Sequence record: NC_134264.1
Direction: 5' to 3' (one strand)
Origin: Escherichia phage Lindwurm
Length of the DNA stretch: 64,000 nucleotides
The position numbers and the translations under genes are program-made. Positions 18,893 to 38,905 of the stretch are shown one piece after another. Every line of letters begins with the position of its first letter. Positions within the stretch are counted from its first letter, which is position 1. Under the pieces are notes generated by a model. That model saw only the letters and a program-made list of their open reading frames with translations, ran no database searches and was not told where the DNA came from.

Positions 18893-19063
18893 ATGAAATC
18901 AGTTGTAATTATTGGTGTTAACACTCGCGGTATTCGTACTACGAAAACTGTTAAAACTTCTAACGTTGCTGAAATCACTACGAACCCTAAAAAGTTTGAT
19001 TTCGCCAAAGTCTCAGCAGTTATGACAGAACAATCTTTTAACCAAGCGTTAGGAATGAAATAA
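18893..19063 (+). CDS. small hypothetical protein
   Basis: 56-aa ORF (below track cutoff) with GAGAGGAAG RBS; stop overlaps next start (TAATG). Confidence 0.4.
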   Translation: MKSVVIIGVNTRGIRTTKTVKTSNVAEITTNPKKFDFAKVSAVMTEQSFNQALGMK

Positions 19064-19617
19064 TGGAAGAGAATATTTTAGATGTTTTGCGTAGAGCTTT
19101 GCAGGATTCTAAGTTTAATGGTTCTGATAAAGAAGTCGCTAAAAGCTATCAGACCATAGTTGGGGATCTTCAGCGTATTGATAAAGACTTCATCACTTCA
19201 GAACAATTTGTGTCTTATCTCAAAGCTCAACTAAAAAGCATTAACCAGATGAAAGCTAAACTTCATGGTCAAGATCTTGATAGTTATAGCTTGCAGTCTG
19301 CTCAGTATGAATACATTCTAAATAAGTGGTTGCAGGAGTATCTGCCCCCTCAGTTGTCTGATACTGAGATTCGTAAATACTTTGCAGAATTAGTTAAGCT
19401 AAACCCCGGAATTACAAAGGGTATGCTGATGAAAGCGATTAAGGAAGAATTTCCTGGGCGTTATGATGGTGGTACTGCTGCTCAGATTGCTGGCGAATTT
19501 AACCAAGCAGATAGTTTAGTAAACTTAATAAAAGTTGCTAAACAGGATATTTCAGAAGGTAAATCATATACGCAAGAAGAAGCACTTGCTAAATTAAAGT
19601 CCGATAGATTAAACTAA
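19063..19617 (+). CDS. GatB/YqeY-domain protein
   Basis: EYLPPQLSDTEI and GMLMKAIKEEFPGRYDG resemble the YqeY C-terminal domain. Confidence 0.5.
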   Translation: MEENILDVLRRALQDSKFNGSDKEVAKSYQTIVGDLQRIDKDFITSEQFVSYLKAQLKSINQMKAKLHGQDLDSYSLQSAQYEYILNKWLQEYLPPQLSDTEIRKYFAELVKLNPGITKGMLMKAIKEEFPGRYDGGTAAQIAGEFNQADSLVNLIKVAKQDISEGKSYTQEEALAKLKSDRLN

Positions 19618-19654: not shown

Positions 19655-20451
19655 ATATTCATAAATTAGAGAACAGCGAGCCGATTACGCTGAGTGCAGA
19701 ATCCCAACCGGAGCGCATTGAATAGAGTCGGTGGGTTAGTTGTAAAACTAGTACACAGGGGGCGGCAATCCCGGTTAGTGGCTAGAACGTGTAAAATGAG
19801 GCGTCTGAAACCTCTCCCCTAAACTCTTCTCTAATTTATAAATAGTGGGGTGTGGAAATCACTTATGTAGTAACACTGCCGTACTAGTATAATTGGTATT
19901 ATCAAGCCGTAACTGGTGGAAGATGTAGGTTCGAATCCTACGGTCGGTAAGAACTGGATAACTGGTGCTTTTAATGTAAAAGCTTCCGAGGTTAGTTGCG
20001 CACTGCCTAAACCACGCGGTAGTTGGTTCCAGACTAACCAACCAGTCTGCTGAATAGTTTTATTACGATTTAACTATGTCCAGGCTAAAGAAGAACTTTA
20101 GAAGGTATTCTAGGATAGTGAAGTTCTTTCTCCATATCGGAGTAGTTTTTCAAGCTATCCCCAAAGTGGGAAATGCTGACATGAGAGATGTCACTAATGG
20201 TGCACAATAGCACAGGTAATTCGCGATAACTCCTGTTGAGTAGCAGCAAAAGGCGGGAAGTCATGACCCCAAGCCTAACCGAGTCCTCAATATACCGCAG
20301 GACATAACCACTAAGTCACCCTGACTTAAACTGGAAAATAATAGACGTTACCGTATTTTGTCTTGAAATACTTAATGAGTGAGACTTATGACTCTCCCGG
20401 TATCGTCTGTATTTTTAAGAGTTTTTACAAGAGTTCTTAAAAATACTTAAA

Positions 20452-24158: not shown

Positions 24159-24236
24159 GGTTCTCAAGCTCATATGGTATGAGCACCCAGCTCATAACTG
24201 GAAGGTACGTAGGTTCGAATCCTCGGGGAGCCACCA
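24159..24236 (+). tRNA. tRNA-Met-like (anticodon CAT), imperfect T-stem
   Basis: Acceptor GGTTCTC/GGGAGCC; D-stem GCTC/GAGC; loop ctCATaa; T-stem has 2 mismatches; CCA. Confidence 0.5.
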
Positions 24237-27019: not shown

Positions 27020-27367
27020 ATGATTAATGCTAAAGAAGAATTGTTACTTGCCCTAAAGAATACTAATTCTGAAGTTAAGTGTATTAAGATAGAATTCGGT
27101 TATTATGGTGACAAAGAAGTTTGGGTATTGCCCGTAGGTTATACAGAAAAAGATATTGAAGATTTTCTAAATAATCTAGACTTTAAATATGATTCTGGTT
27201 ATGGTGGGCAATTGCTTTATGGTAACGTGTGGTTTACTGATGGAACTTGGTTAGAACGTGGTGAATACGACGGTTCTGAGTGGTGGGAATATAAGGCTAC
27301 GCCAGCAATCCCAGAAGAATGCCGAACAATTAATGGTGAAGTAGATCGTACTTTACTATTAAATTAA
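27020..27367 (+). CDS. hypothetical protein
   Basis: 115-aa ORF. Confidence 0.5.
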   Translation: MINAKEELLLALKNTNSEVKCIKIEFGYYGDKEVWVLPVGYTEKDIEDFLNNLDFKYDSGYGGQLLYGNVWFTDGTWLERGEYDGSEWWEYKATPAIPEECRTINGEVDRTLLLN

Positions 27368-27489
27368 CAAAATTTCAGTGCAGAACACGGAGCTAGCAAT
27401 TCGGAAGTGCTGACTCATGATAAGCTGCCTATGTACTTGCGAAGCGGTCGTGTCCAAGACTCGGACTCTTGCACTGAAAACAATCAAAC

Positions 27490-27610
27490 ATTCTAGCGTG
27501 GTTGATGGGGAAACCAGCTTGGCGAGGGCAGAAGCTCGTTCGATTCGAGTGAAAGAATGGTTCTCGTAAGTCCGCACAAGTGATAACAGGTTCGAGTCCT
27601 GTCTAGAATG
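27490..27610 (+). ncRNA. oversized tRNA-like element (~121 nt)
   Basis: Perfect 7-bp acceptor ATTCTAG/CTAGAAT and T-arm ACAGG-TTCGAGT-CCTGT enclosing ~95 nt with an inner T-arm-like hairpin. Confidence 0.4.
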
Positions 27611-27769
27611 ACACTATAAAGTTTACTTATTATGTAGGTTCCGGTAGACCGGCGGGTCTATTCTGGCATTTAAGAGAGGTCTCGCAAGCCTCTTTGTCAG
27701 CAGTGGGGTTGGTAGCCTCCAGGTGGCCTACACAATAAGTAAATTTATTAAAAATTCATTTGCTATTCT

Positions 27770-27798
27770 GCTTAATTCTCTGTATAATATATCTTATA
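27770..27798 (+). promoter_or_regulatory. T5-type early promoter
   Basis: TTGCTA-17 bp-TATAAT. Confidence 0.6.
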
Positions 27799-27820
27799 AA
27801 GTGAAGAGAAGGAAAGCTAA

Positions 27821-29014: not shown

Positions 29015-29599
29015 ATGCAGTTTGTACCAATAAAAGATGCACCAGGGTATTTAGTAAATGAAACAGGGGATGTGTTATCTACATTTACTAATAAAATTTT
29101 ATCAAGATATATAGTTGATGGATACCCTGCTGTAAAATTACAGATAAATGGTAAGCAAACTTCGGTACTTATACACCGAATTATTTCTCATGTATTTGGG
29201 GACTTATATAATCTATTTGACCCTGAATTAGAAGTAGATCACAAGGATAGAGATAGGCTGAATCTATCTAAAGATAATCTTCAAGTTTTGTCAAAAATAG
29301 AACATCAGAAGAAAACTAATAAAGATAATGGATGGTCTGATAGTAGAGTACCTTGCCCCTTATGTGGAAATCTAATGCTTCAGAGATCAGTAACATGTAC
29401 AAATTGTAAGCCAAAACCTACAGGAAAGTTAATAAAACCAGAATTGTCCTTAGAAGACATAACTGAAAAGGTTTTATTAATGGGGTGGGTTAAGGCAGCT
29501 AAAGATCTAGAAGTATCAGAGTCCACTTTACGTAGACGATATACTAAACTAACCGGATTAAGCCCAAAAGTATTAACAGAACAACGGAAAAGCAAATAG
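29015..29599 (+). CDS. HNH homing endonuclease
   Basis: IKDAPGYLVNETGDV N-terminal motif; VDHKDRDRLNLSKDNLQVL...EH HNH core; C-terminal HTH-like segment. Confidence 0.7.
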   Translation: MQFVPIKDAPGYLVNETGDVLSTFTNKILSRYIVDGYPAVKLQINGKQTSVLIHRIISHVFGDLYNLFDPELEVDHKDRDRLNLSKDNLQVLSKIEHQKKTNKDNGWSDSRVPCPLCGNLMLQRSVTCTNCKPKPTGKLIKPELSLEDITEKVLLMGWVKAAKDLEVSESTLRRRYTKLTGLSPKVLTEQRKSK

Positions 29600-29679
29600 A
29601 CTGGTGACTAAACCCGATTGGAAATCGGTTGAGTGGTAGCAATACCGCCTTATGGGTTCAACTCCCATCTTTTCCGCCA
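29586..29679 (+). tRNA. tRNA-Ser (anticodon GGA)
   Basis: Acceptor GGAAAAG/CTTTTCC; stem CCGA/TCGG; loop ttGGAaa; long variable arm; T-arm ATGGG-TTCAACT-CCCAT; CCA. Confidence 0.7.
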
Positions 29680-29691
29680 AACAATTTATAC

Positions 29692-29786
29692 GGTAGGTCA
29701 ATCCAACGGCTGGCGCTGGACTCCGACTTGAAATCGGTTGATCGTAGTGATACGGTGTAAGGGTTCGATCCCCTTACCTACCTCCA
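29692..29786 (+). tRNA. tRNA-Ser (anticodon TGA)
   Basis: Acceptor GGTAGGT/ACCTACC; loop ctTGAaa; long variable arm; T-arm AAGGG-TTCGATC-CCCTT; CCA. Confidence 0.75.
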
Positions 29787-29791
29787 AATCT

Positions 29792-29923
29792 TGAAGTATG
29801 CCGGAATCGGTAGACGGGGCTGCCTAAAAGGTTTATAGAGAACATCCACTCTCTACAACATACCTCATAAAGCGGCTGAGATAAATGGTCTATCTCGTGA
29901 AGGTTCAAGTCCTTCTGCTTCTT
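29792..29923 (+). ncRNA. oversized tRNA-like element (~132 nt)
   Basis: Perfect T-arm GAAGG-TTCAAGT-CCTTC and 6/7-bp acceptor enclosing hairpins AGAG..CTCT and GAGATA..TATCTC; no CCA. Confidence 0.35.
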
Positions 29924-30152
29924 GATACACCTATGGCTCAAAGTGTAACGGTGCTATTTGATACTCTTAGTAAGACTTTCCCGACATGCGTTCGGGAGTA
30001 AGCTGCTAAGGCTAGAGTAGAAGAGTTTCGGAGAGCCGCCACAATTGAAAATTCGTACTCGTCTTGAGCTGCGTGCAATAGGAGATAACTTGATTAGTAT
30101 TCTAGAACATGCTAATTGAGGAAGGTTTCGCTAACCCTGCGAGTTTTCAATT

Positions 30153-30229
30153 GTGGCTATATCATAATTGGTTAATGATCCTGATTGTGAATCAGGCCTA
30201 TGTGGATTCGAATTCCACTAGCCACCCCA
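30153..30229 (+). tRNA. tRNA-His (anticodon GTG)
   Basis: Acceptor GTGGCTA/TAGCCAC; D-stem TCAT/ATGA; stem CCTGA/TCAGG; loop ttGTGaa; CCA. Confidence 0.8.
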
Positions 30230-30287
30230 AATTAACTTAAATAGGGAATAAAATATAGCTGATTTCTGCAAACAATGCTCCGTTGAT

Positions 30288-30452
30288 ATGTGGGGTAGAG
30301 ATACTGGTGATCTTTCTGGTTTGATTACAGAAGCTGAGGTCAAAGAAGGTTATGGTGCAGTTGTGATTTGCGAAGGATGCGGAGTTATTCGAGTAGATCA
30401 TGAAGGCAAACGTTTAGAAGAACAGGAAAACTTAGGAGAAACAAATGAGTAA
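30288..30452 (+). CDS. small hypothetical protein
   Basis: 54-aa hand-translated ORF; no clear RBS. Confidence 0.3.
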   Translation: MWGRDTGDLSGLITEAEVKEGYGAVVICEGCGVIRVDHEGKRLEEQENLGETNE

Positions 30453-30681
30453 TGCTTTAATTAGTGAAATTATGTTAACACGTCTTGCAGAACTGCAAAC
30501 TCTTCGAGATGAATCTCAGAATAACTTAGCGTACCATAAACAAATGGTAGATACTCTTACTACTCGTATTGATACTTACGAGCGTGATATTGCAGCATTA
30601 CAAGCTCTATTCTCTGTACCAGCACCAGATACGTTAGAACAGCCTGCTGTTTCTCAGCCAGTAGAAACAGCATCTAGTTAA
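30445..30681 (+). CDS. hypothetical protein
   Basis: 78-aa ORF with GGAGAAAC RBS. Confidence 0.45.
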   Translation: MSNALISEIMLTRLAELQTLRDESQNNLAYHKQMVDTLTTRIDTYERDIAALQALFSVPAPDTLEQPAVSQPVETASS

Positions 30682-30690
30682 TAGCATTCT

Positions 30691-30766
30691 TGGGATGTAG
30701 ATCAATTGGCAGATCGTCGGCCTCTGACTCCGAAGGTTCCACGTTCGATCCGTGGCATCCCAGCCA
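30691..30766 (+). tRNA. tRNA-Gln (anticodon CTG)
   Basis: Acceptor TGGGATG/CATCCCA; D-stem GATC/GATC; loop ctCTGac; T-arm CCACG-TTCGATC-CGTGG; CCA. Confidence 0.7.
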
Positions 30767-30772
30767 AACAAT

Positions 30773-30848
30773 TGGAGAGTAGTGTAACGGTTAGCACAAC
30801 GGCCTTTGACTCCGTTAATGGTAGGTTCGATTCCTCCTTCTCCAGCCA
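30773..30848 (+). tRNA. tRNA-Gln (anticodon TTG)
   Basis: Acceptor TGGAGAG/TTCTCCA; loop ctTTGac; T-loop TTCGATT; CCA. Confidence 0.7.
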
Positions 30849-30856
30849 AGTAATAA

Positions 30857-30932
30857 GCGGTTAAGCACACGGGTTGTGTCGCAGGCCTTCCAAGCCTAGC
30901 TGAGTAGGGTTCGATTCCCTCTAGCCGCTCCA
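30857..30932 (+). tRNA. tRNA-Gly (anticodon TCC)
   Basis: Acceptor GCGGTTA/TAGCCGC; stem AGGC/GCCT; loop ctTCCaa; T-loop TTCGATT; CCA. Confidence 0.65.
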
Positions 30933-30948
30933 ACTTTAAGGAAACATT

Positions 30949-31200
30949 ATGCACGTTTTTGAGTTTCGTAATAAAAGTACCGATAAACGAGTTATTGTTA
31001 TTGGAGAAACATACCGAGCATACGAACAAACTGACGGATCTGTTATACTGAATGATGAGAAAGGGGGTTTTAGCTTTTATCCAGAAGAACCTTATGAAGA
31101 GTTTCGAAAACAATTTAACCTAGACTGGAGAAAGCATTTAAACACTGTTGCTTCATCTGTAGTATTGCCAACTACCAGTACTGTGCTCTCTAATGGCTGA
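30949..31200 (+). CDS. hypothetical protein
   Basis: 83-aa ORF with AAGGAAAC RBS. Confidence 0.45.
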   Translation: MHVFEFRNKSTDKRVIVIGETYRAYEQTDGSVILNDEKGGFSFYPEEPYEEFRKQFNLDWRKHLNTVASSVVLPTTSTVLSNG

Positions 31201-31357
31201 TAACCTAAAAGTCAAGATCGATAAACAAAAGAAACGTGTAGAAGTAGAGATTGGTGAAGAACGTGTAGCCTTCACCTTTGAATTTCTACAACAAATGGCA
31301 ATGACAGTTATGACTGATAAGTCTCCTGTTATTGAAAAAGAAATCCCGTTGAAATAA
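31193..31357 (+). CDS. small hypothetical protein
   Basis: 54-aa hand-translated ORF, start overlapping stop of preceding gene. Confidence 0.35.
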   Translation: MADNLKVKIDKQKKRVEVEIGEERVAFTFEFLQQMAMTVMTDKSPVIEKEIPLK

Positions 31358-31365
31358 CGGGTTCT

Positions 31366-31452
31366 GCTGGGTTGGCAGAATGGTTGAATGCACCTGATTT
31401 GTAATCAGGAGGAGTAATCCCACTGCAGGTTCGAATCCTGTGCCCAGCACCA
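31366..31452 (+). tRNA. tRNA-Thr (anticodon TGT) with ~15-nt variable region
   Basis: Acceptor GCTGGGT/GCCCAGC; stem CCTGA/TCAGG; loop ttTGTaa; T-arm GCAGG-TTCGAAT-CCTGT; CCA. Confidence 0.6.
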
Positions 31453-31466
31453 ATTTAAGGACTAGT

Positions 31467-31634
31467 ATGTTTAAACTACTAGTAGTTATCTGGTATAGTC
31501 AATCAAACAGAGCTAATACCTCCCACGTTATAGACTTTAATACTAAAAACGAAGCTGAAAAAGCATACGCTAATTTAATAGAACGTAATAAAGAATCTCG
31601 TAGTATAGTTTATGAAGTGACTAAACTCTATTAA
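31467..31634 (+). CDS. small hypothetical protein
   Basis: 55-aa ORF from ATG 31467 with AAGGA RBS. Confidence 0.35.
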   Translation: MFKLLVVIWYSQSNRANTSHVIDFNTKNEAEKAYANLIERNKESRSIVYEVTKLY

Positions 31635-31642
31635 AAATTCAT

Positions 31643-31671
31643 TTGCTTTCTCTCTTATTTCTTGTTATAAT
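31643..31671 (+). promoter_or_regulatory. T5-type early promoter
   Basis: TTGCTT-17 bp-TATAAT. Confidence 0.65.
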
Positions 31672-31701
31672 ATTTATATAAATTAATGAGAGGGAAACCA
31701 A

Positions 31702-31995
31702 ATGAAACGTTATCTTTCTGTTGTGTTCCAAACTGGTGGTCAACGCTATACCTATGAATTTCCTAGCTCTTGGAAGATCAAAGAAGGTGATCAAGTAGTA
31801 GTGTTAACACCGCGTGAGGGTTTCAAGGTAGTAACGGTTAAGCAAGTATTTCCAAAAGAGCATGAACCAGCTAAAGGCATTCGCTATAAGATGATTCATG
31901 GTGTAGTTCGTCAAGTACCACGAGCGGAAGTCGAAATCAAAGTAGATAAAGATGGTAAACTTAAATATACCTCTTGCTTAGACGAGTTGCTATAA
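31702..31995 (+). CDS. hypothetical protein
   Basis: 97-aa ORF with GAGAGGGAAAC RBS. Confidence 0.5.
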   Translation: MKRYLSVVFQTGGQRYTYEFPSSWKIKEGDQVVVLTPREGFKVVTVKQVFPKEHEPAKGIRYKMIHGVVRQVPRAEVEIKVDKDGKLKYTSCLDELL

Positions 31996-32201
31996 TGAGG
32001 ATTACTTTCACAGAAAAGATCATGAGTAATGGTGTTATGATCATTACCGCATGGGATGGTAGTCAGTGGTGTAGTGTTTCAGGTATTAAGCCTGAAAAAC
32101 AAACACTAGAAAATATCTCAAAGATTAAGCGAATAATGGCAGAACGTGCACGACTTCCAGGTGCGCCTAGAAATGGCAAACGTTCTGCTGTAAAATGTTA
32201 A
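31995..32201 (+). CDS. hypothetical protein
   Basis: 68-aa ORF; ATG overlaps preceding stop (TAATG). Confidence 0.45.
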   Translation: MRITFTEKIMSNGVMIITAWDGSQWCSVSGIKPEKQTLENISKIKRIMAERARLPGAPRNGKRSAVKC

Positions 32202-32202
32202 T

Positions 32203-32279
32203 ACTTCGGTAGCTTAGCGATCTAAAGCACTCGGCTGATAACCGAGAGATCGGGGGTTTAAATCCCTCCCGGAGTACCA
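32203..32279 (+). tRNA. tRNA-Ile (anticodon GAT)
   Basis: Acceptor ACTTCGG/CCGGAGT; stem CTCGG/CCGAG; loop ctGATaa; T-arm GGGGG-TTTAAAT-CCCTC; CCA. Confidence 0.8.
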
Positions 32280-32375
32280 AATTTAGGAATTAAGACTATG
32301 CGTCCAGGAAAGTTTAAAAAAGCTAATTGGACTAAAGAGTATAAAGAATACTTACTTAGTCTAGTAAAACATAAT

Positions 32376-32451
32376 AGTTAGTTGGCAGAGCGGTTATGCA
32401 CCTCCTTCATACGGAGCGATTACAGTGGTTCAAATCCACTACTAACTACCA
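32376..32451 (+). tRNA. tRNA-Met (anticodon CAT)
   Basis: Acceptor AGTTAGT/ACTAACT; loop ttCATac; T-arm AGTGG-TTCAAAT-CCACT; CCA. Confidence 0.75.
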
Positions 32452-32488
32452 TTAAAATAGCTAGAGATAGCTAAATTTAGGAGCAGCT

Positions 32489-32683
32489 ATGTTAACAATT
32501 AAAATAATGTCAGCCAAGAATGGGGAACAGATTCATACAGGCAAAAGTGTAAGCTTTAATCCTAGAAATAAAAGATTGGCTATAGTTGGAGTAGACCAAG
32601 CCATCTTTTTAAAAGAAGATGAAGTAGCATATGTCATGAACCAAACTGGTAAGACAGTTTCCGTATACTATGGAAAAGTATAA
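32489..32683 (+). CDS. hypothetical protein
   Basis: 64-aa ORF with AGGAG RBS. Confidence 0.45.
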   Translation: MLTIKIMSAKNGEQIHTGKSVSFNPRNKRLAIVGVDQAIFLKEDEVAYVMNQTGKTVSVYYGKV

Positions 32684-32725
32684 AGAATAAAAAGCTGAGC
32701 CAAATTCTAACATCGGGGAGATCTA

Positions 32726-33094
32726 ATGAAAGCATATCAAAATCTTAAATCTGGCGTAATTAACCTTGTTCATGAAAATCAGATTATTCAGCTATACTCC
32801 GACAACGGTGAACTTAAACAGAAAGTTCTAGTTGAAGATCTAGAAGGTATCACACCGCAATTCGATCCTGAATCCTTCCGTGAAGTTAAGGTGGAAGTCG
32901 TCCCTCAAATCGAAGGTGGTCAGCACCTAAATGTCAATGTGTTAAGCCGTGATCAGCTTTTGGATGCGCAGAAACATCCTGAAAAATATCCTCAGTTGAC
33001 CATCCGTGTCTCTGGCTACGCTGTTCGATTTAATGCACTGACTCGTGAACAACAGAACGACGTTATTAGTCGTACATTTACTCAGGCAATGTAA
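32726..33094 (+). CDS. autonomous glycyl-radical cofactor (GrcA/YfiD-like)
   Basis: [11 protein letters not shown] and [27 protein letters not shown] match the GrcA glycyl-radical domain. Confidence 0.75.
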
Positions 33095-33175
33095 TGGGGT
33101 TTGGATACGATTTCTCCCAGCTACGCAAGGTAGTCGAGCAAACTCCGTTTATCTCCCAAGTTTTAGGAGAAATGT

Positions 33176-33481
33176 GTGGATCGAGCATTAAGACGCCATC
33201 ACCGGCAACGTGTGAAGAACAACCGTAAGAAGTATTGGACAGTCTTTCCACATGAAGAAAGCCCTAAGCGGTTAGGTATTATCACTACTACTCCTTGCAT
33301 CTGTTCTTGTTGGATGTGTGGGAACCCTCGCAAATATTATAAGAATAGTAAAGCAGGTATGAAAACCTCGGAGATCAGGAAAATGGAAGCGATGATTGCG
33401 GACATCACCTATACTGGTGGTATTTCAAATGATGAATTTGATGGCTTCGTAGCGTTCGAAGATGAACGCCCCGATCTGTAA
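33176..33481 (+). CDS. Cys-rich hypothetical protein
   Basis: 101 aa with CICSCWMCGNP cluster. Confidence 0.45.
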   Translation: MDRALRRHHRQRVKNNRKKYWTVFPHEESPKRLGIITTTPCICSCWMCGNPRKYYKNSKAGMKTSEIRKMEAMIADITYTGGISNDEFDGFVAFEDERPDL

Positions 33482-33492
33482 TTAATAACAAA

Positions 33493-33526
33493 CCCCAGCT
33501 ATTGAATAAGTAGTCTGGGGTTTTTC
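33493..33526 (+). terminator. rho-independent terminator
   Basis: CCCCAG...CTGGGG stem followed by TTTTT. Confidence 0.65.
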
Positions 33527-33602
33527 TGTATAAAGGTACATAATATATGTATAATAAAATTCATCCACATTAGGTTAATTTAAAAGACTTAATGGAGGTA
33601 AT

Positions 33603-33950
33603 ATGAGCCGTACTTATCGTAAACAATCTGGTGATCAGTGGTGGAAGTCTAAAGAACAATTCTCTCAAGAATATTCTTTCCTCAAAGAAAATGGCTACTG
33701 GATTCGTGTTATTTATGCCAAATCCTGGGACGACATCAAAAAAGAAATGAAGGAAGCAACCATTCGTAATGAGAAAAAGGATGGTTATAACTGGAATTCT
33801 ATTAGTAAGAATGTTAAGTGGCATTCTAATAAAATGGTTCGTCAAGGGAATCGTCAAGAACTCCACCGCGTGATGAAAGATCCAGAAAATTATGATTATA
33901 ATCGCGATCATGACATGCGTAAACGTGGGTTATGGTGGTGCTATGACTAA
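33603..33950 (+). CDS. hypothetical protein
   Basis: 115-aa ORF with GGAGG RBS. Confidence 0.5.
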   Translation: MSRTYRKQSGDQWWKSKEQFSQEYSFLKENGYWIRVIYAKSWDDIKKEMKEATIRNEKKDGYNWNSISKNVKWHSNKMVRQGNRQELHRVMKDPENYDYNRDHDMRKRGLWWCYD

Positions 33951-33966
33951 ATTCTGAAATAATTCA

Positions 33967-33995
33967 TTTGCTAAACCTCTCTTTTCTTGCTATAA
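33967..33995 (+). promoter_or_regulatory. T5-type early promoter
   Basis: TTGCTA-17 bp-TATAAT. Confidence 0.65.
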
Positions 33996-34026
33996 TATGT
34001 TTATAAATTGATGAGAGAGGTTTGAA

Positions 34027-34308
34027 ATGAAAACTCGTCTAGACTGTGCTGTTCATGTTCTTGAACATGATGTTGCGGGAACCTGTATGTCTTACCACGA
34101 AGCAGGTCGTTTAATTAAAGAACGTGTGGCAGATGTGTGCGGATTGAAGATTACTGCTGAGGAAGCTGATGATCTTTTAGGTCAAGCACTGGAGAAAACC
34201 GAAATGTTTCTCTGTGATTCTTGTTCTTGGTGGTGTGAAGCCCACGAACGTTCTTTCAACGATTATGATGTATGTCGTGATTGTAGTGGGGAGGATGAAG
34301 ATGAATAA
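34027..34308 (+). CDS. Cys-rich hypothetical protein
   Basis: 93 aa; CDSCSWWC...CRDC; acidic tail GEDEDE overlaps next gene's RBS. Confidence 0.5.
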   Translation: MKTRLDCAVHVLEHDVAGTCMSYHEAGRLIKERVADVCGLKITAEEADDLLGQALEKTEMFLCDSCSWWCEAHERSFNDYDVCRDCSGEDEDE

Positions 34309-34600
34309 GTTTATTATTGCACTGATGATATCCGCAGTTAGTTTCGGTTCTCTGGCGTCTACCAAAGTTTCTATGAAAAATGGTAATGTTAAAGTCCAAC
34401 AGAACGGCATTATTACCGAGTATGGTAAAGTTCGTGATGTTAAGGAACGTAATGGTAAAGTAGAAATATATACTAATAAAAACTTCTCTACTCCAGCCGT
34501 TACTATTAGCAAACGCGGTGAAATAACCACTCAACGTACTAATAGTTCTGATTCTTTTACTTGTCGTTATGATTGCGACTTTGAAGGTGAAGATGAATAA
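34301..34600 (+). CDS. secreted small protein
   Basis: Signal peptide MNKFIIALMISAVSFGSLAST; acidic tail EGEDE overlaps next start. Confidence 0.5.
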   Translation: MNKFIIALMISAVSFGSLASTKVSMKNGNVKVQQNGIITEYGKVRDVKERNGKVEIYTNKNFSTPAVTISKRGEITTQRTNSSDSFTCRYDCDFEGEDE

Positions 34601-35012
34601 TTTAGACCCTAGAATTAAATTTGCAATTACAGAAATCCAAGATCAAATTGATGAGGACTTCACTGTTTGGTCAAGGTCTGGTAATGGAGAATATTGCCAG
34701 CTTTATAGCATGAAAATGGGTATTTCAATTGAGCTTAACATCAACTCTGAAGGTAGAGTAGAAGCCCAACCCATGTTCAGTATTCCAGGCTTCTCAGGAT
34801 TTGTTGCAGGTATAAAATTGTGTCTACCAAATAACCATCTTCATCGAGTTATTTGTCAGTTAGAGACTATTAAGCATTTCTTGCCAGAAGGTAACATTAA
34901 TGACTACTACCATGAAGTTGTAGCAGCTCATATGATGAAAGAAAGTAAACGTCGGAGAGAAGAACGTGAAAAGACTAAACATCAACAGCACAGTGCAGAT
35001 CCCAGCAACTAA
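34593..35012 (+). CDS. hypothetical protein
   Basis: 139-aa ORF from ATG 34593 with GAAGG RBS. Confidence 0.5.
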   Translation: MNNLDPRIKFAITEIQDQIDEDFTVWSRSGNGEYCQLYSMKMGISIELNINSEGRVEAQPMFSIPGFSGFVAGIKLCLPNNHLHRVICQLETIKHFLPEGNINDYYHEVVAAHMMKESKRRREEREKTKHQQHSADPSN

Positions 35013-35358
35013 GGATGTTTTAACATTCCTACGTAGTGAGAATACTCAGTTTTGGCATGACTATATTCAGGAAAATAAAAATAACCCAGATGTAGTTGCC
35101 TTTGCCAAAAAACGTATTGGTGAATATAAAGATCCAGAGATTAAAGATGGGATGATTACCATGCAGTTATGGGTAGCTATGAAAACCTTTGGACCCACTA
35201 TGAGTCTAGGATTTACTCCACTGTTTACTAATATTCTAATTAATGAAAAGGATCTGAAATTATTATCTCTCCATTTGCTCTTTGGTTCGTCATTGGATCT
35301 GTGGTTGCTATTTACAGCTTGGTTGATGATCTGTATATTTCTAAGAATAAAGATGTAA
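34966..35358 (+). CDS. hypothetical protein (3' part uncertain)
   Basis: 130-aa ORF; hydrophobic C-terminus may be a frame artefact. Confidence 0.35.
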   Translation: MKRLNINSTVQIPATKDVLTFLRSENTQFWHDYIQENKNNPDVVAFAKKRIGEYKDPEIKDGMITMQLWVAMKTFGPTMSLGFTPLFTNILINEKDLKLLSLHLLFGSSLDLWLLFTAWLMICIFLRIKM

Positions 35359-35653
35359 TATTATACGTTATACATAAAACTCGACCGTTAGATCTGCCCC
35401 CTCTTGATGATAAAACATTACTCAGATGTGCTAGATCTATGATATTTATTGTGGATATTCTTCTAGGCCCAACATCTGTGTTTTTCTTTTATAGAAAGAC
35501 TCGTAATATGAAAAAATTTAAAGCTGAAATGCAGAATACCTAAAGAACTCGCGTAGGACCGAGTTGCGTCACCTGCAACTGTTACGGATAAGGGAGTCGT
35601 GCCCCTTAGTGCGGTAAGTGGTGAGTTGGTCGCTGACCTTAACTGGAGATTAT

Positions 35654-35998
35654 ATGACTATAGTACTAATTCTTGTTACCACCTGGTTTTTAATCGGCGC
35701 TGTGTATGCAGTAGCTATACTTAGACACTTAGATGAATATTCTGCTGAATGGTTCATTAAACACCTTCGTATAGACAACAAAGAGCACGAGTTTGAAAAC
35801 GAAAAACAAAGAAAAGCAGTTGAAGAAATGACAGGCGAAGAATGTTTATTCTACATGCGTGCAATAGGATTCTTAGGATTATTTGGTGCTGGCCCACTAG
35901 GTTTTACCATAGCCCCTTATAAAGAAACAGTAGACGATATTAAGTTATGGAGAAATGCAGGGGTACTACGCAAAGCTAGAGAAACCAATATTACATAA
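35654..35998 (+). CDS. membrane protein
   Basis: Start MTIVLILVTTWFLIGAVYAVA (TM helix) with GGAG RBS. Confidence 0.5.
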   Translation: MTIVLILVTTWFLIGAVYAVAILRHLDEYSAEWFIKHLRIDNKEHEFENEKQRKAVEEMTGEECLFYMRAIGFLGLFGAGPLGFTIAPYKETVDDIKLWRNAGVLRKARETNIT

Positions 35999-36042
35999 GA
36001 TTGATACTAAATCAACTTACTAGCAAAAGCAAATAATGACAA

Positions 36043-36078
36043 AGCCCAGCCTGCACTTTTGCGACTGGGCTATTTTTA
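36043..36078 (+). terminator. rho-independent terminator
   Basis: GCCCAG...CTGGGC stem followed by TATTTTTA. Confidence 0.6.
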
Positions 36079-36092
36079 TAATAAAATTTTAG

Positions 36093-36121
36093 TTGCTTAG
36101 ATGCCCAAACTTTTGTATAAT
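36093..36121 (+). promoter_or_regulatory. T5-type early promoter
   Basis: TTGCTT-17 bp-TATAAT. Confidence 0.65.
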
Positions 36122-36152
36122 ATGTTTATAGATTGAGGCAAGAGGATTAAAT

Positions 36153-36851
36153 ATGAGGATTATTTCTAAGTTCGCCGATGTGTATGATTTGCAGAACAGT
36201 TTGTTCGACCCAGATCGTGTGTGGGAACGTAAAACTGAGGAGTTACTGGTTAAAGTAACTGATGATGCAGAAAAGAACATTGTGCATACTCGCCAGGTAT
36301 TTCGTGATGGTTCGCTATCTTTTCGTGGTGATTTCGAATATTTTGTAAACCCACTATTTGTTGCAGGTGAAGTTTACTGGTTACACGAGCTGTACTGCTG
36401 GCATCCAGCGTTTAGCTTCAAAACGTTCAACCTCGACACTATGTTCGATAAAATGGAAGAGATGGGATTGCATGCTCGCTCTTACTTAATGGATAAGAGT
36501 CGTGGAGATGTTCGTGAAACAATGCGTGATTTGCTCGCTGAAGCAAAACCTAAAGCAGAACGTATCTTATCCGAACTGCGTGTACCGATTGCATATGTGA
36601 AAGGTATTAAAAAGAACGATAACGATGATGTTCGTAACTTCGTGATTCAGACTAACATTCGTTTCCATCAGTCAGGTATTCCGTGGCAGGAAATTGAAAG
36701 TAACTTATACCGTTTACACCAAGTTCTCGAACAGTATATCTTCGGTGTACTAGGAACTGGTGAGCCTGATATGATTAAAGTATCAGATAAAGACAGGTTA
36801 GCAGCGCATGGATTTGATACAAAAACTTCTTTCAGGAATATGGCACGGTAA
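36153..36851 (+). CDS. hypothetical protein
   Basis: 232-aa ORF with AGAGGA RBS. Confidence 0.55.
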   Translation: MRIISKFADVYDLQNSLFDPDRVWERKTEELLVKVTDDAEKNIVHTRQVFRDGSLSFRGDFEYFVNPLFVAGEVYWLHELYCWHPAFSFKTFNLDTMFDKMEEMGLHARSYLMDKSRGDVRETMRDLLAEAKPKAERILSELRVPIAYVKGIKKNDNDDVRNFVIQTNIRFHQSGIPWQEIESNLYRLHQVLEQYIFGVLGTGEPDMIKVSDKDRLAAHGFDTKTSFRNMAR

Positions 36852-37257
36852 GTGGTATATCCTGGGAGCAGGTCTAGCGATAGGCATCGGGTTCGGTGCT
36901 TATCACTTAGTAGATAAAGTGGAGACTTTAGCGGGAGATCTTGCAGTAGCTACTAAAAAGATTTCTTCTCTAGAGACTTCCCTTAATAATGTGAAAGCTG
37001 AAAGCGAACTTCGTGAGACTAGAATGAATCAGTATTTCACGATGAATAATATTTCTCAAGCAGACTTAGATAAGAAAATTGGTCAGCTTGATAAAGCACT
37101 TAACCGCCAAGATATTATAGCTGCAAAGCCTGGATTGGTAACATTAATTGCTAAAAAGCAGAGTAAGGAGTTCGAGGAAAGATTAGCATGTTTAACTGGA
37201 AACTTGGAATACTGCTCGCAGCCGCAATCACAATCACAGGCTGTGCACAAGAAATAG
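36808..37257 (+). CDS. i-spanin-like membrane protein
   Basis: N-terminal TM helix then coiled-coil periplasmic domain. Confidence 0.4.
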   Translation: MDLIQKLLSGIWHGKWYILGAGLAIGIGFGAYHLVDKVETLAGDLAVATKKISSLETSLNNVKAESELRETRMNQYFTMNNISQADLDKKIGQLDKALNRQDIIAAKPGLVTLIAKKQSKEFEERLACLTGNLEYCSQPQSQSQAVHKK

Positions 37258-37541
37258 AGCCAGAACCCACACACGAGTTACCAACAGCTCATGTAGATTG
37301 GCCTAAAGGACTTCAACCTTGTAGCTTTGACTTTAAGTTTGAAAAGAAATTAGCTACAAATGGAGAAGATGGCGTAGTAGTTGTTGTACCATATAAAGAT
37401 TGGAATATGTTGGCAAAATGCCGTGAGGCAGAATATTCATATATTTCACGACTGACAAGTATGGTTTGCTTCTATCGTCAAGATTTGCAAGAAAAACGTT
37501 GTTTAGTATATTATCCACCAATTAACAATAGGAAAGATTAA
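37188..37541 (+). CDS. lipoprotein (o-spanin-like)
   Basis: Lipobox LAAAITITGC; start overlaps 3' end of preceding TM/coiled-coil gene. Confidence 0.4.
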   Translation: MFNWKLGILLAAAITITGCAQEIEPEPTHELPTAHVDWPKGLQPCSFDFKFEKKLATNGEDGVVVVVPYKDWNMLAKCREAEYSYISRLTSMVCFYRQDLQEKRCLVYYPPINNRKD

Positions 37542-38293
37542 TGTCAGTATTAGTCGGTTTACATGGTGAAGCTGGTTCGGGAAAAGATACAGTTGCAAAA
37601 TTAATTATCGATTGGTGTAATGACACGTATCCAACGTGTTTATCCCGTCGTTATAGTTTTGCTAAGCCCGTTTATGAACTTGCATCCGTAATCCTCGGTG
37701 TAACTCCAGAGTTTCTAGGAGAGCGCAGAGGAAAAGAGATTGACCAATGGTTTACGGTCACACAATCTCAATTGGAGCGAGCCAGAGATGTGTGGTTTAA
37801 GTACGGTATCGATAAGTTTGAAGACTTCTCGTACGTTTGGCCTATTTTTGAGGAAAAATATCTTAATCCTCAACAACTTATCTCAGAGAGTAAAGAAGAT
37901 GGACTTTATAGTTTATTTATTTCTCCGAGAAAAATGTTACAGCTCGTAGGAACAGAGCTAGGAAGGCAGCTGGTGCATGAACGCATTTGGCTCATAATTC
38001 TGGAGCAATCCATCGCTAAAGACGACCCAGACGTCGCCGTAATAACAGATGTTAGATTCCCCAATGAAGGAGAGTTACTCAGAGAAACAAACCATTTAGA
38101 TATGGATTCTTTGATAGTAAATGTAGTACCCGCTGAGCAGAAGTTCACTATTAAATCAGATCATCCATCTGAAAGTGGTATTCCTGCAAAATATATTACT
38201 CACGAATTAGTTAATAAATTCGATGGTATCAATAACCTTAAACTAGAAGTTTATAACTTCTGTGACTTAGAGCTAGAACCACTAGTTGGATAA
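37541..38293 (+). CDS. deoxynucleoside monophosphate kinase
   Basis: P-loop GLHGEAGSGKDT; 250 aa, the size of the T5 dNMP kinase. Confidence 0.7.
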   Translation: MSVLVGLHGEAGSGKDTVAKLIIDWCNDTYPTCLSRRYSFAKPVYELASVILGVTPEFLGERRGKEIDQWFTVTQSQLERARDVWFKYGIDKFEDFSYVWPIFEEKYLNPQQLISESKEDGLYSLFISPRKMLQLVGTELGRQLVHERIWLIILEQSIAKDDPDVAVITDVRFPNEGELLRETNHLDMDSLIVNVVPAEQKFTIKSDHPSESGIPAKYITHELVNKFDGINNLKLEVYNFCDLELEPLVG

Positions 38294-38305
38294 TCAAGGA
38301 TCGCT

Positions 38306-38905
38306 ATGACTAATAAAAAAGAAGAAAAGACTAACCTGTTTCACTCCATTCGCCAATCTAACGAGTATACCTTTTTCTTTGATGAAGAATTAGGCCCGCC
38401 GGATGAATACCGTGATTTATCAATGGTACTTATGCAGGCACATGAGGATGACGAAATTAATCTGATGATTAATGGCCCGGGTGGTTATGTTGATACTGCT
38501 GCACAGTTATCTAACTTAATTGCTAATTGCCGTGGAACAGTTATAGGACATCTGGTTGGTCCTAGTGCTTCTGCTTACTGCACAATTTTCCTATCCTGCC
38601 ATGGGTGGGTAGTACATCCACATGCTACGCTAATGGGACACACGTTCTCTGGCGGATTCTGTGAGAAGGGTCAAGAAATCAAGAAAGCCTATGAATCTTA
38701 CAACAAGTTCGTAGAAGATATGATGCTAGATGTCTACTATCCGTTCTTCTCAATAGACGAAATCGACGAGATGGTAAAAGACAACAAAAATATCTATCTA
38801 GATAGCAAAGAAATTCATAAGCGTATTGAAATCTTGGCAAAATATCGATCTGAGCAATATAATAAAGCCCAGTTACCTCAATCAGAAGAGCATAACGAAG
38901 AGTAA
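38306..38905 (+). CDS. ClpP-like serine protease
   Basis: NGPGGYVDTAAQ and GPSASAYC...H blocks resemble ClpP Ser/His. Confidence 0.6.
   Translation: MTNKKEEKTNLFHSIRQSNEYTFFFDEELGPPDEYRDLSMVLMQAHEDDEINLMINGPGGYVDTAAQLSNLIANCRGTVIGHLVGPSASAYCTIFLSCHGWVVHPHATLMGHTFSGGFCEKGQEIKKAYESYNKFVEDMMLDVYYPFFSIDEIDEMVKDNKNIYLDSKEIHKRIEILAKYRSEQYNKAQLPQSEEHNEE

What the first reader, a model, noticed from the sequence alone, without database searches (positions are those of the whole stretch)
27490..27610. Oversized tRNA-like element with perfect acceptor stem and T-arm
A perfect 7-bp acceptor helix (ATTCTAG / CTAGAAT) and canonical T-arm (ACAGG-TTCGAGT-CCTGT) enclose ~95 nt instead of ~45. The interior has a D-like hairpin and a second T-arm-like hairpin (GCTCG-TTCGATT-CGAGT); no CCA is encoded. 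It could be a tRNA with an insertion, a fused or permuted tRNA, or a tRNA-mimic small RNA.
Basis: seen in the sequence. Interest (0 to 1): 0.6.

Follow-up and report, generated by a model that had tools for sequence, protein, structure and literature searches.

The report
Phage T5 RNA2, a tRNA-like RNA
This is the already-annotated "RNA2" gene of T5-like phages: a tRNA-shaped small RNA whose anticodon loop is replaced by a highly conserved 55-base domain, real and under selection, but of unknown function and dispensable in the laboratory.

Summary
Window 27489-27613 (+) carries a perfect acceptor helix, a D arm, a T arm, a second T-arm-like hairpin and no CCA.

It is not new. It is about 97% identical to, and syntenic with, phage T5 gene rna2 (T5s06), annotated as "tRNA-like stable RNA with unknown functions".

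Comparison of 28 distinct homologues gives a covariation-supported structure:
- A complete tRNA frame: acceptor, D, anticodon-stem equivalent and T helices.
- A 55-nt three-way junction in place of the 7-nt anticodon loop. It holds a hairpin with an almost invariant T-loop (UUCGAUU) and a hairpin with a 7-nt loop, CNCRUAA.

The insert is more conserved than the frame (0.85 vs 0.61). All 21 called tRNA genes in the window encode CCA. RNA2 has ACA, and CCA is not conserved among homologues.

The family occurs in T5-like phages, T4-like Acinetobacter phages and uncultured phages. It was not found in bacterial genomes or in Rfam.

Viable T5 deletion mutants lack it, and published mapping does not assign PARIS or retron escape to it.

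Best reading: a non-decoding tRNA mimic excised by tRNA-processing enzymes. Its target is unknown.

The parts
27489..27613 (+). Whole RNA2 gene, with limits equivalent to the T5 annotation (CATTCTAG...CTAGAATGACA, 125 nt)
   Evidence: Maps onto T5 rna2 32959..33083. Covariance model R1 scores 144 bits here, and this is the only such copy in the window.
27490..27496 (+). Acceptor stem, 5' strand (AUUCUAG); pairs with 27603-27609
   Evidence: Perfect inverted repeat. All 7 pairs show changes on both sides across the family, for example UACGGGG/UCCCGUA, GGGUACU/GGUAUCC, ACUGACC/GGUCAGU and GACUUUG/CAAAGUC.
27499..27516 (+). D arm: stem UGGUU/AACCA with loop GAUGGGGA (conserved GG)
   Evidence: 5 of 5 stem pairs show double changes. 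The GG is nearly invariant.
27517..27521 (+). P3, the anticodon-stem equivalent, 5' strand (GCUUG); pairs with 27577-27581 (CAAGU)
   Evidence: 5 of 5 pairs show double changes and 97.8% of cells are paired. The rival MFE pairing with 27567-27571 shows no covariation.
27522..27576 (+). 55-nt insert that replaces the 7-nt anticodon loop; a three-way junction (P3/P4/P5)
   Evidence: Mean majority-base frequency is 0.85 across 12 lineages, against 0.61 for the tRNA frame. ARAGORN calls a tRNA once this stretch is replaced by 7 nt.
27534..27550 (+). P4 hairpin GCUCG-UUCGAUU-CGAGU: an inner T-arm look-alike
   Evidence: 4 of 5 stem pairs show double changes. Loop conservation is 0.99 (only UUCGACU and UUCAAUU variants seen).
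27551..27557 (+). J4/5 linker GAAAGAA
   Evidence: Conservation 0.92 across 12 lineages.
27558..27574 (+). P5 hairpin UGGUU-CUCGUAA-GUCCG: 7-nt loop with consensus C-N-C-R-U-A-A, resembling an anticodon loop
   Evidence: RNAalifold predicts the three G-C/U-G pairs on its own. The helix is mostly invariant, with only U-G to U-A changes, and 72/82 is a U.U mismatch, so it is the weakest helix of the model. Loop conservation is 0.90.
27577..27581 (+). P3, 3' strand (CAAGU)
   Evidence: See P3 5' strand.
27582..27585 (+). Variable-loop equivalent (GAUA)
   Evidence: Lies between P3 and the T stem, as in class I tRNAs (alignments A4 and A6).
27586..27602 (+). Canonical T arm ACAGG-UUCGAGU-CCUGU
   Evidence: 3 of 5 stem pairs show double changes and the other two are invariant G-C. 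Matched by Rfam tRNA below threshold.
27603..27609 (+). Acceptor stem, 3' strand (CUAGAAU)
27610..27613 (+). Discriminator G followed by ACA (no CCA)
   Evidence: All 21 ARAGORN-called tRNA genes in the window end in CCA. RNA2 homologues end in ACA, ACU, ACC, CCA, CAA, CUA or UGA.

Best explanation
The element is the orthologue of phage T5 gene rna2 (RNA2), a roughly 125-nt tRNA-like stable RNA encoded inside the early tRNA gene cluster.

Shown here:
- It has a full tRNA frame: a 7-bp acceptor stem, a D arm with GG, a 5-bp anticodon-stem equivalent, a 4-nt variable loop and a T arm.
- A conserved 55-nt three-way junction replaces the 7-nt anticodon loop. One branch (P4) carries an almost invariant T-loop sequence, UUCGAUU. 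The other (P5) carries a 7-nt loop, CNCRUAA.

Inferred:
- It is transcribed with the neighbouring tRNAs. No terminator-like site was found on its strand, and the only strong promoter-like site lies downstream of it.
- It is cut out by the tRNA-processing enzymes, RNase P at the 5' end and 3' trimming, because it keeps the acceptor/T-arm/elbow shape they recognise.
- It does not decode. It has no anticodon loop at the right distance, CCA is not conserved, and the acceptor-stem sequence is not conserved.
- The selected part is the insert plus the elbow. It therefore most likely acts in trans as a tRNA mimic that binds, titrates or redirects a tRNA-binding factor conserved across Gammaproteobacteria, or a phage-encoded one.
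- It is an accessory function rather than one needed for growth in the laboratory.

The confidence of 0.8 refers to the identity, the structure and the non-decoding tRNA-mimic nature. The decoy or titration role is a guess, at roughly 0.25.
For: Identity:
- About 97% identity and the same gene order as T5 rna2, 'tRNA-like stable RNA with unknown functions'. rna2 is also annotated in BF23 and T5 st0.

Structure:
- On 28 distinct homologues, 93.8% of cells are paired and 25 of 32 pairs show double changes. The covariation score is 0.531, against 0.179 for shuffles (0 of 500 reach it) and 0.094 or less when the partners are slid.
- RNAalifold recovers the acceptor, D, P4, P5 and T helices on its own.

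tRNA frame:
- ARAGORN calls a tRNA when the insert is replaced by a 7-nt loop.
- Model R1 hits genuine tRNAs at 17-32 bits with the insert deleted.

Non-decoding:
- No tRNA call by ARAGORN or Rfam.
- CCA is present in all 21 tRNA genes but not in RNA2, and is variable in homologues.
- Acceptor sequences differ completely between lineages.

The insert is the selected part:
- Conservation is 0.85 for the insert against 0.61 for the frame.
- Several T4-like Acinetobacter phages keep the insert, the T arm and the GG loop but lack a convincing acceptor stem.

Context:
- The element lies inside or next to tRNA genes in T5-like, Klebsiella, Serratia and Acinetobacter phages.
- There is no terminator-like site on its strand, and the strongest promoter-like site lies downstream.

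Phage-only and accessory:
- Only 1 of 72 pattern hits in 185,579 bacterial and archaeal genomes is real, and it lies on a 167-kb contig that I read as phage.
- No match in the E. coli genome collection.
- The viable phage T5Mos lacks 30661-38625, which includes rna2 (PMC11464382). Spontaneous 8-kb deletions of the tRNA-rich region are also viable (PMC11555353).
Against: - No expression or end-mapping data were available to me. 'Stable RNA' rests on the GenBank annotation and on a 1982 paper title seen only in a reference list.
- The alignments used for pair counting were fitted to the model, which favours it. RNAalifold did not predict P3 on its own.
- P5 is almost invariant, so covariation barely tests it.
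- A trans-acting decoy role has no direct support. T5-123 keeps rna2 yet is PARIS-sensitive. Retron Eco2/Eco7 escape maps to ORF75 and tRNA-Tyr.
- No conserved partner gene was found nearby.
- Two homologues (UTK0010, Klebsiella K7_rec10) do encode CCA, so 3' CCA addition and charging cannot be excluded.
Confidence: 0.8

Rival explanations
1. It is a cis-acting element only. The tRNA-shaped fold provides RNase P or RNase E entry sites, or protects the polycistronic early transcript, helping neighbouring tRNAs and mRNAs to mature. The excised RNA has no function of its own.
For: It always sits in or beside tRNA genes or small-gene operons. In phage 133 it fills the spacer between tRNA-Gly and tRNA-Cys. 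It is dispensable. In T5-likes it is flanked by other structured stable RNAs.
Against: A processing signal needs only the acceptor/T-arm shape. Yet the acceptor stem is the least conserved part and is lost in some lineages. The loops of the insert are nearly invariant between phages of Enterobacterales and of Acinetobacter. In L226 it stands alone, with no tRNA gene in 10 kb.
Confidence: 0.1
2. It is a chargeable tRNA-like RNA that acts on the ribosome or in an aminoacyl-transfer reaction, in the manner of tmRNA. CCA would be added after transcription.
For: The acceptor stem and T arm are intact, with a discriminator base. Two homologues encode CCA. The Serratia version has G3.U70 and A73, the alanine identity pair (the identity rule is from my own knowledge). 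In ZZ1 the next gene is annotated as an RF-1-domain protein.
Against: CCA is encoded by all 21 tRNA genes but not by RNA2. Acceptor-stem identity is not conserved between lineages, and the stem is absent in several Acinetobacter phages. ARAGORN finds no tmRNA, and there is no tag reading frame. P3 plus P5 would make an arm too long for ribosomal decoding (inference).
Confidence: 0.06
3. It is a tRNA gene interrupted by an intron. The 55-nt insert is removed to give a functional tRNA.
For: The insert sits exactly at the anticodon-loop position. The P5 loop CUCGUAA looks like a tRNA-Thr(CGU) or tRNA-Met type anticodon loop (sequence; the comparison is from my own knowledge).
Against: At 55 nt it is far smaller than bacterial or phage group I introns, and no intron family matched in Rfam even at E up to 10. 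ARAGORN in intron mode finds nothing. Removing the insert leaves no loop. The insert is more conserved than the frame and has its own covarying helix P4. T5 annotates the 125-nt species itself as the stable RNA.
Confidence: 0.03
4. It is a decaying tRNA pseudogene carrying a meaningless insertion, or a protein-coding stretch. Several GenBank records annotate 'hypothetical protein' or 'excisionase' over it.
For: Tools do not call it a tRNA. ORFs of 50 and 72 aa overlap it, and some depositors annotated CDSs there.
Against: It is conserved, with compensatory changes, across T5-like, Sugarlandvirus, Serratia, T4-like Acinetobacter and uncultured phages. The insert is the best-conserved part. Lineages differ by 1-2-nt indels, which would break any reading frame (alignments A4 and A6).
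Confidence: 0.01

Closest known systems
Phage T5 rna2 (RNA2, locus T5s06; also annotated in BF23 AJ604530 and T5 st0 AY692264)
   Same: It is the same gene: about 97% identical over 125 nt, with the same neighbours (T5.067 homologue upstream; RNAIV, promoter P13a, T5.066 homologue and tRNA-Pro/fMet downstream).
   Different: Only point substitutions, for example G-C to A-U in the T stem and A to G in the acceptor 3' strand. The T5 record gives no structure, function or family. Those are worked out here.
Other phage 'stable RNAs' in tRNA clusters: T5 RNA1 (tRNA-like, 144 nt) and T4 species 1 and 2 RNAs (rnaC, rnaD)
   Same: They are small stable RNAs of unknown function, encoded among phage tRNA genes. 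RNA1 and rnaC also end in a T arm. The window carries the RNA1, RNAI and RNAIII homologues too.
   Different: No detectable homology. R1 gives only 19.3 bits (E 0.24) on T4 rnaC and no hit on rnaD or RNA1. The conserved insert motifs (UUCGAUU...GAAAGAAUGG...CNCRUAA) are absent from them.
tmRNA tRNA-like domain
   Same: An acceptor stem plus T arm plus GG-containing D loop, with the anticodon arm replaced by something else. Probably processed by RNase P. The Acinetobacter versions also lack a D stem, as tmRNA does.
   Different: No tag ORF, no pseudoknots, 125 nt rather than about 360, no conserved G3.U70 and no conserved CCA. ARAGORN and Rfam do not call it.
Bacterial Y RNA YrlA (tRNA-like domain bound to Rsr/Ro60)
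   Same: A non-coding RNA that mimics the tRNA elbow (T arm and D arm) and is not a decoder. Phage-encoded examples are known (from my own knowledge).
   Different: The topology is opposite. In YrlA the RNA termini form the Ro-binding stem and the acceptor-like stem is capped. Here the termini form the acceptor stem and the extra domain sits at the anticodon end. There is no Rfam match at E up to 10.
Canonical tRNA (Rfam RF00005)
   Same: Acceptor, D, anticodon-stem and T helices in the canonical order and spacing, with T-loop UUCGA and D-loop GG.
   Different: A 55-nt junction replaces the anticodon loop. Position 8 is C or A rather than U. The first pair is A1-U72. There is no CCA. It scores 18 bits against a gathering score of 29.

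Membership tests
Phage T5 rna2 / RNA2 stable-RNA gene | Sequence orthology to T5 rna2 (NC_005859 32959..33083) | tested here: met
   About 97% identity in alignment A1. R1 scores 144 bits in the window and 141 bits in T5. Coordinates map 1:1.
Phage T5 rna2 / RNA2 stable-RNA gene | Same genomic position in the early tRNA region | tested here: met
   The order is T5.067 homologue, hairpin, RNA2, RNAIV, P13a, T5.066 homologue, tRNA-Pro, tRNA-Met.
Phage T5 rna2 / RNA2 stable-RNA gene | Accumulates as a discrete stable RNA of about 125 nt in infected cells | not testable with these tools
   Only the GenBank note and the title of Ksenzenko et al. 1982, seen in a reference list. The primary papers are not held.
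Canonical tRNA (RF00005) | Acceptor stem, D arm with GG, T arm with UUCGA, in cloverleaf order | tested here: met
   ARAGORN accepts the frame once the insert is replaced by 7 nt.
Canonical tRNA (RF00005) | 7-nt anticodon loop on the anticodon stem | tested here: not met
   55 nt lie between the strands of P3.
Canonical tRNA (RF00005) | Reaches the detection thresholds of tRNA finders | tested here: not met
   ARAGORN makes no call, with or without intron mode. Rfam tRNA gives 18 bits against a gathering score of 29, and only for a partial alternative fold.
Canonical tRNA (RF00005) | 3' CCA, which every called tRNA gene of this phage encodes | tested here: not met
   21 of 21 tRNA genes end in CCA; RNA2 ends in G-ACA. 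Post-transcriptional addition is not testable here.
tRNA gene with a group I intron | Intron of 200 nt or more with a group I core in the anticodon loop | tested here: not met
   The insert is 55 nt. No intron family matched at E up to 10.
tmRNA | tRNA-like domain plus a tag-peptide reading frame and pseudoknots | tested here: not met
   ARAGORN, which also searches for tmRNA, finds none. Rfam finds none. At 125 nt there is no room for them.
T4 species 1/2 RNAs (rnaC/rnaD) | Sequence or structure homology | tested here: not met
   R1 gives 19.3 bits (E 0.24) on rnaC and nothing on rnaD. The insert motifs are absent from both.
Bacterial Y RNA (YrlA) | Ro-binding helix formed by the termini, with a capped tRNA-like module | tested here: not met
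   No Rfam match at E up to 10. Here the termini form the acceptor stem.

The most novel reading that the evidence does not exclude
RNA2 defines an undescribed, phage-specific family of 'two-elbow' tRNA mimics. It is shared by unrelated phage lineages: T5-like siphoviruses, T4-like Acinetobacter myoviruses and uncultured phages of about 164 kb.

The tRNA frame would serve only as a processing and stability scaffold. The invariant insert (an inner T-loop docked on the GG of J3/4, plus an anticodon-like CNCRUAA loop) would be the effector. It would capture a conserved tRNA-binding factor, for example a tRNA-directed toxin or defence nuclease not yet tested, a tRNA modification enzyme that reads U36-A37-A38, or the phage's own YqeY-like protein. 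That would make it an RNA-based host-takeover or counter-defence device.
Probability: 0.25. Interest if true: 0.75.

Novelty: already known. Interest (0 to 1): 0.4.

Why it matters
Phage tRNA clusters are now understood as counter-measures to tRNA-cleaving bacterial immunity: T5 tRNA-Lys against PARIS and T5 tRNA-Tyr against retron Eco7. The orphan 'stable RNAs' in the same clusters have had no structure, family or function assigned in anything I could find.

This analysis gives RNA2 three things:
- A testable secondary structure.
- Evidence that selection acts on the 55-nt insert rather than on the tRNA frame.
- Evidence that the RNA is shared between unrelated phage groups and absent from bacteria.

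That makes it a defined target for deletion, pull-down and structural work, and a candidate Rfam family. It also flags that many GenBank records annotate spurious proteins over it, including an 'excisionase'.

Tried and rejected
- **Single-sequence MFE fold.** Its interior pairings (28-32/78-82, 34-40/71-77, 84-86/91-93) show no covariation and were rejected.
- **Rfam** at gathering score and at E up to 10, on 521 nt and on 131 nt. It gave only a sub-threshold partial tRNA match.
- **ARAGORN**, with and without intron mode. No call.
- **Homology to T4 rnaC/rnaD and T5 RNA1**. None found.
- **A paralogous origin** from one of the window's own tRNAs. No close relative; best 74% identity over the frame.
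- **A conserved neighbouring protein** across lineages (blastp of all ORFs within 3 kb). None found.
- **YqeY-like tRNA-binding protein as a partner.** One lies next to the L226 homologue, and one is present in the window at 19063-19617. However, such proteins are common in tRNA-rich phages in general, and none was detected in Acinetobacter phages. Co-occurrence is not established.
- **A host look-alike of the insert** in the E. coli genome collection. None found.
- **The loose IMG/VR pattern** returned almost only noise. The bacterial-genome scan gave 71 false hits out of 72.
- **Literature on RNA2 function**. Nothing found. Wang 2005 and Glukhov 2018 are not held.
- **Alternative 5' strands in the T5 group.** The inner GUUCUCG could pair with the 3' acceptor strand, and AGAAUGG could pair with the 5' end (I1). 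Neither is conserved in other lineages, so both were treated as coincidence.

Full report
**What the window is.** The window comes from a T5-like phage (Demerecviridae, Tequintavirus). The best matches are 99% identical. A tRNA cluster lies on the + strand between 19.9 and 32.5 kb, with 21 genes called by ARAGORN and 21 by Rfam. Neither tool calls anything at 27490-27610. This holds even with Rfam at E up to 10 on 521 nt. On the 131-nt element alone, Rfam gives only a partial tRNA match of 18 bits against a gathering score of 29.

**Checking the observation.**
- Acceptor strands ATTCTAG (27490-27496) and CTAGAAT (27603-27609). With the flanking C and G they form a perfect 8-nt inverted repeat 106 nt apart.
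- A D-like hairpin at 27499-27516.
- An inner hairpin, GCTCG-TTCGATT-CGAGT, at 27534-27550.
- A canonical T arm at 27586-27602.
- G-ACA in place of N-CCA at the 3' end.

The T-loop word GTTCGANTC occurs 19 times in the window against 1.27 expected, and two of those copies lie in this element.

**Identity.** The reference T5 record annotates a misc_RNA, 'rna2, T5s06, RNA2: tRNA-like stable RNA with unknown functions', at 32959..33083. It lies between T5.067 and RNAIV, promoter P13a, T5.066 and tRNA-Pro/fMet.
- The window aligns to this stretch at about 97% identity with the same neighbours.
- T5 RNA2 maps to window 27489-27613, RNAIV to 27632-27734 and P13a to 27741-27815.
- rna2 is also annotated in BF23 and in T5 st0.

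So the element is a known, named gene. Its function was not given in anything I could read. I found only the title of Ksenzenko et al. [quoted passage not shown] The T5 genome paper and the deletion-mutant paper are not held.

**The family.**
- BLAST finds the element in 478 phage records, mostly Salmonella and Escherichia T5-likes. It also finds Klebsiella (Sugarlandvirus), Serratia and Acinetobacter phages.
- Pattern scans of IMG/VR and metagenomes, followed by a covariance model (R1), added:
  - T4-like Acinetobacter phages Acj9, 133 and ZZ1;
  - a 167-kb contig binned as a 'bacterium' (L212);
  - a divergent metagenomic member (L046);
  - a member on a 164-kb viral contig (L226).
- Of 72 pattern hits in one genome per 185,579 bacterial and archaeal species, only L212 is real.
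- The E. coli genome collection has no match to the insert.

The family therefore looks phage-specific. It is absent from Rfam 15.

**Structure.** The single-sequence MFE fold (z = -1.0) pairs 28-32 with 78-82 and 34-40 with 71-77 (numbering: 1 = 27490). The homologues show instead that 28-32 pairs with 88-92. Examples are GCUUG/CAAGU in T5, GCCUG/CAGGU in Klebsiella, GCCUC/GAGGU in Serratia, UCCCUA/UAGGGA in Acj9 and CCCAU/AUGGG in L226.

On the model-guided alignment of 28 distinct sequences (A6):
- 93.8% of cells are paired, against 74% in shuffles.
- 25 of 32 pairs have changes on both sides.
- The covariation score is 0.531, against 0.179 in shuffles (0 of 500 reach it) and 0.094 or less when partners are slid by 1-3 columns.

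| Helix | Pairs with double changes |
|---|---|
| Acceptor | 7 of 7 |
| D | 5 of 5 |
| P3 | 5 of 5 |
| P4 | 4 of 5 |
| T | 3 of 5 |
| P5 | 1 of 5 (mostly invariant) |

The MFE alternative has no covariation: 0.076 against 0.089 in shuffles. RNAalifold recovers the acceptor, D, P4, P5 (3 bp) and T helices on its own, but not P3. One caveat applies: A4 and A6 were fitted to the model, which favours it.

**The resulting picture.** The RNA is a complete tRNA frame with a 55-nt insert (27522-27576) in place of the anticodon loop. The insert is a three-way junction made of:
- J3/4, GCGAGGGCAGAA, with an invariant GG;
- P4, with loop UUCGAUU;
- J4/5, GAAAGAA;
- P5, UGGUU/GUCCG with loop CUCGUAA (consensus C-N-C-R-U-A-A);
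- the dinucleotide CA.

Two tests confirm the frame. ARAGORN calls a tRNA when the insert is replaced by 7 nt, but not for the native sequence, even in intron mode. R1 matches the phage's true tRNAs at 17-32 bits with the insert deleted. Only one RNA2 copy exists in the window.

**Where selection acts.** Across 12 lineage representatives, the mean majority-base frequency is 0.85 for the insert and 0.61 for the frame.

| Region | Conservation |
|---|---|
| P4 loop | 0.99 |
| P5 5' strand | 0.97 |
| J4/5 | 0.92 |
| P5 loop | 0.90 |
| Acceptor strands | 0.38-0.45 |

Acceptor sequences are unrelated between lineages. In phages 133, Acj9, ZZ1 and L212 I could not find a convincing acceptor helix at all. 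The D stem is also missing there (UACCNNGGUGGAAG), while the insert, P3 and the T arm are kept. The frame therefore behaves like a scaffold and the insert like the functional part.

The co-occurrence of an inner T-loop with a conserved GG in J3/4 suggests a second 'elbow'-type tertiary contact. This is inference from tRNA structure and was not tested.

**It is not a decoder.** All 21 called tRNA genes in the window end in CCA followed by an A/T-rich spacer. RNA2 has G-ACA. Homologues have ACA, ACU, ACC, CAA, CUA or UGA, and CCA in only two cases. Position 8 is C or A rather than U, and the first pair is A-U. P3 plus P5 would place the anticodon-like loop at least 5 bp too far from the elbow (inference). 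In the Acinetobacter phages the position equivalent to U33 is A or G.

**Context and expression.** Upstream of RNA2 is a 115-aa ORF (27020-27367), followed by a 108-nt hairpin. Downstream are RNAIV, a strong sigma-70-like promoter (27760-27788) and a 65-aa lipoprotein-like ORF. No terminator-like site lies on the + strand. I infer co-transcription with the upstream tRNAs and excision by tRNA-processing enzymes.

In other lineages the element directly follows a tRNA (Klebsiella, Acj9, 133, L212) or lies between tRNAs (Epseptimavirus, Serratia). L226 is the exception. There it overlaps the stop codon of a small ORF, and no tRNA gene lies within the 10-kb locus. No protein-coding neighbour is shared between lineages.

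**Dispensability and tested defences.**
- T5Mos, a viable phage, lacks 30661-38625 in T5 coordinates, which removes rna2.
- T5-123 (deletion 29191-32442) keeps rna2 yet is PARIS-sensitive. It is rescued by T5 tRNA-Lys alone (PMC11464382).
- Spontaneous 8-kb deletions of the tRNA-rich region in T5 and SP15 are viable. Their loss of infectivity on retrons Eco2 and Eco7 maps to ORF75 and tRNA-Tyr (PMC11555353).

RNA2 is therefore an accessory gene, and these mapping studies do not assign escape from those systems to it.

**Mechanism, and how sure I am.**
- Shown: the identity with T5 rna2, the family, the secondary structure, the absence of decoding features and the stronger conservation of the insert.
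- Inferred: processing by RNase P and 3' trimming, and action in trans as a tRNA mimic through the insert.

The near-identity of the insert loops between phages of Enterobacterales and of Acinetobacter argues for a target that is itself conserved, such as core tRNA-handling machinery or a widespread toxin fold, rather than a strain-specific factor.

The P5 loop keeps C32, C34, U36, A37 and A38 in tRNA numbering. This resembles the loops of tRNAs that read ANN codons, such as Thr-CGU, or Met and Ile2 with CAU. That comparison rests on my own knowledge and is only a lead. I put the decoy or titration role at about 0.25. The rivals are a purely cis-acting processing element (0.10), a chargeable tmRNA-like RNA (0.06), an intron-containing tRNA (0.03), and a pseudogene or coding region (0.01).

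**Verdict.** It is already known as T5 RNA2, so its novelty as an entity is nil. What this analysis adds is the comparative structure, the finding that the insert rather than the frame is conserved, the distribution beyond T5-like phages, and the absence from Rfam and from bacterial genomes. Interest is moderate (0.4). It is an orphan with a defined fold, in a gene neighbourhood that has recently become important for phage counter-defence.

Noticed in passing
window 27373-27480 (+): A 108-nt structured element closed by UUUCAGUGCA/UGCACUGAAA lies between the 115-aa ORF and RNA2 (MFE -32.6 kcal/mol, z -1.6). It is conserved in T5 but falls in an unannotated gap there (33084-33204). In Epseptimavirus a tRNA-Lys occupies this position.
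   Followed up: partly
window 27632-27734 (extended stem 27619-27746) (+): Homologue of T5 RNAIV, 'stable RNA with unknown functions'. With its flanking AU-rich stem it folds to -53.3 kcal/mol (z -5.6). In Epseptimavirus a tRNA-Gly sits here instead.
   Followed up: partly
window 29790-29934, 29935-30041, 30046-30151 (+): Homologues of T5 RNA1 (tRNA-like, 144 nt), RNAI and RNAIII lie in the same order as in T5. The T5.063 ORF that precedes them in T5 is missing.
   Followed up: partly
window 29691-29786 (+): A divergent tRNA-Ser(UGA)-like sequence (GGTAGGT...ACCTACC-TCCA, loop CTTGAAA) sits where T5 has tRNA-Ser1. ARAGORN and Rfam do not call it. R1 gives 19.9 bits.
   Followed up: partly
window 30857-30932 (+): A tRNA-Gly(UCC)-like sequence with an aberrant D arm and an encoded CCA, at the position of T5 tRNA-Gly1. 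Neither ARAGORN nor Rfam calls it.
   Followed up: no
window 19878-19949 and 24159-24233 (+): Two tRNAs are called by Rfam (29.9 and 38.2 bits) but not by ARAGORN. Conversely, four ARAGORN calls (Tyr 25763, Ser 29586, Thr 31366 region and others) differ from the Rfam list only in their end coordinates.
   Followed up: no
window 19063-19617 (+): A 184-aa ORF with a weak YqeY/GatB-tail domain match (PF09424, 24.9 bits, just under the cut-off of 27). It is the homologue of T5.081, 'tRNA amidotransferase'. The domain is known to bind tRNA. In L226 a clear YqeY-like ORF (58.6 bits) lies 200 nt upstream of the RNA2 homologue.
   Followed up: partly
GenBank records hit (e.g. OR896834 71917-72069; NC_071038, PQ818400): Many deposited T5-like genomes annotate 'hypothetical protein', and some 'excisionase', over RNA2 and its flanking RNAs. 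The corresponding window ORFs (27417-27569 +, 27359-27577 -) are almost certainly spurious.
   Followed up: partly
L043 (Acinetobacter phage ZZ1) 1627-1857: The gene immediately downstream of the ZZ1 RNA2 homologue is annotated as a 76-aa 'RF-1 domain peptide chain release factor'. This may hint at a translation or ribosome-rescue link, or may be coincidence.
   Followed up: no
L041 289-361 and L212 7053-7127: ARAGORN calls 'tRNA-Pyl' (anticodon CUA, an amber suppressor type) in two T4-like Acinetobacter-type phage contigs, close to the RNA2 homologue.
   Followed up: no
window, all 21 ARAGORN tRNA genes: Every tRNA gene encodes its CCA end and is followed by an A/T-rich spacer (AATTT-like), which suggests a uniform 3'-processing signal.
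   Followed up: yes
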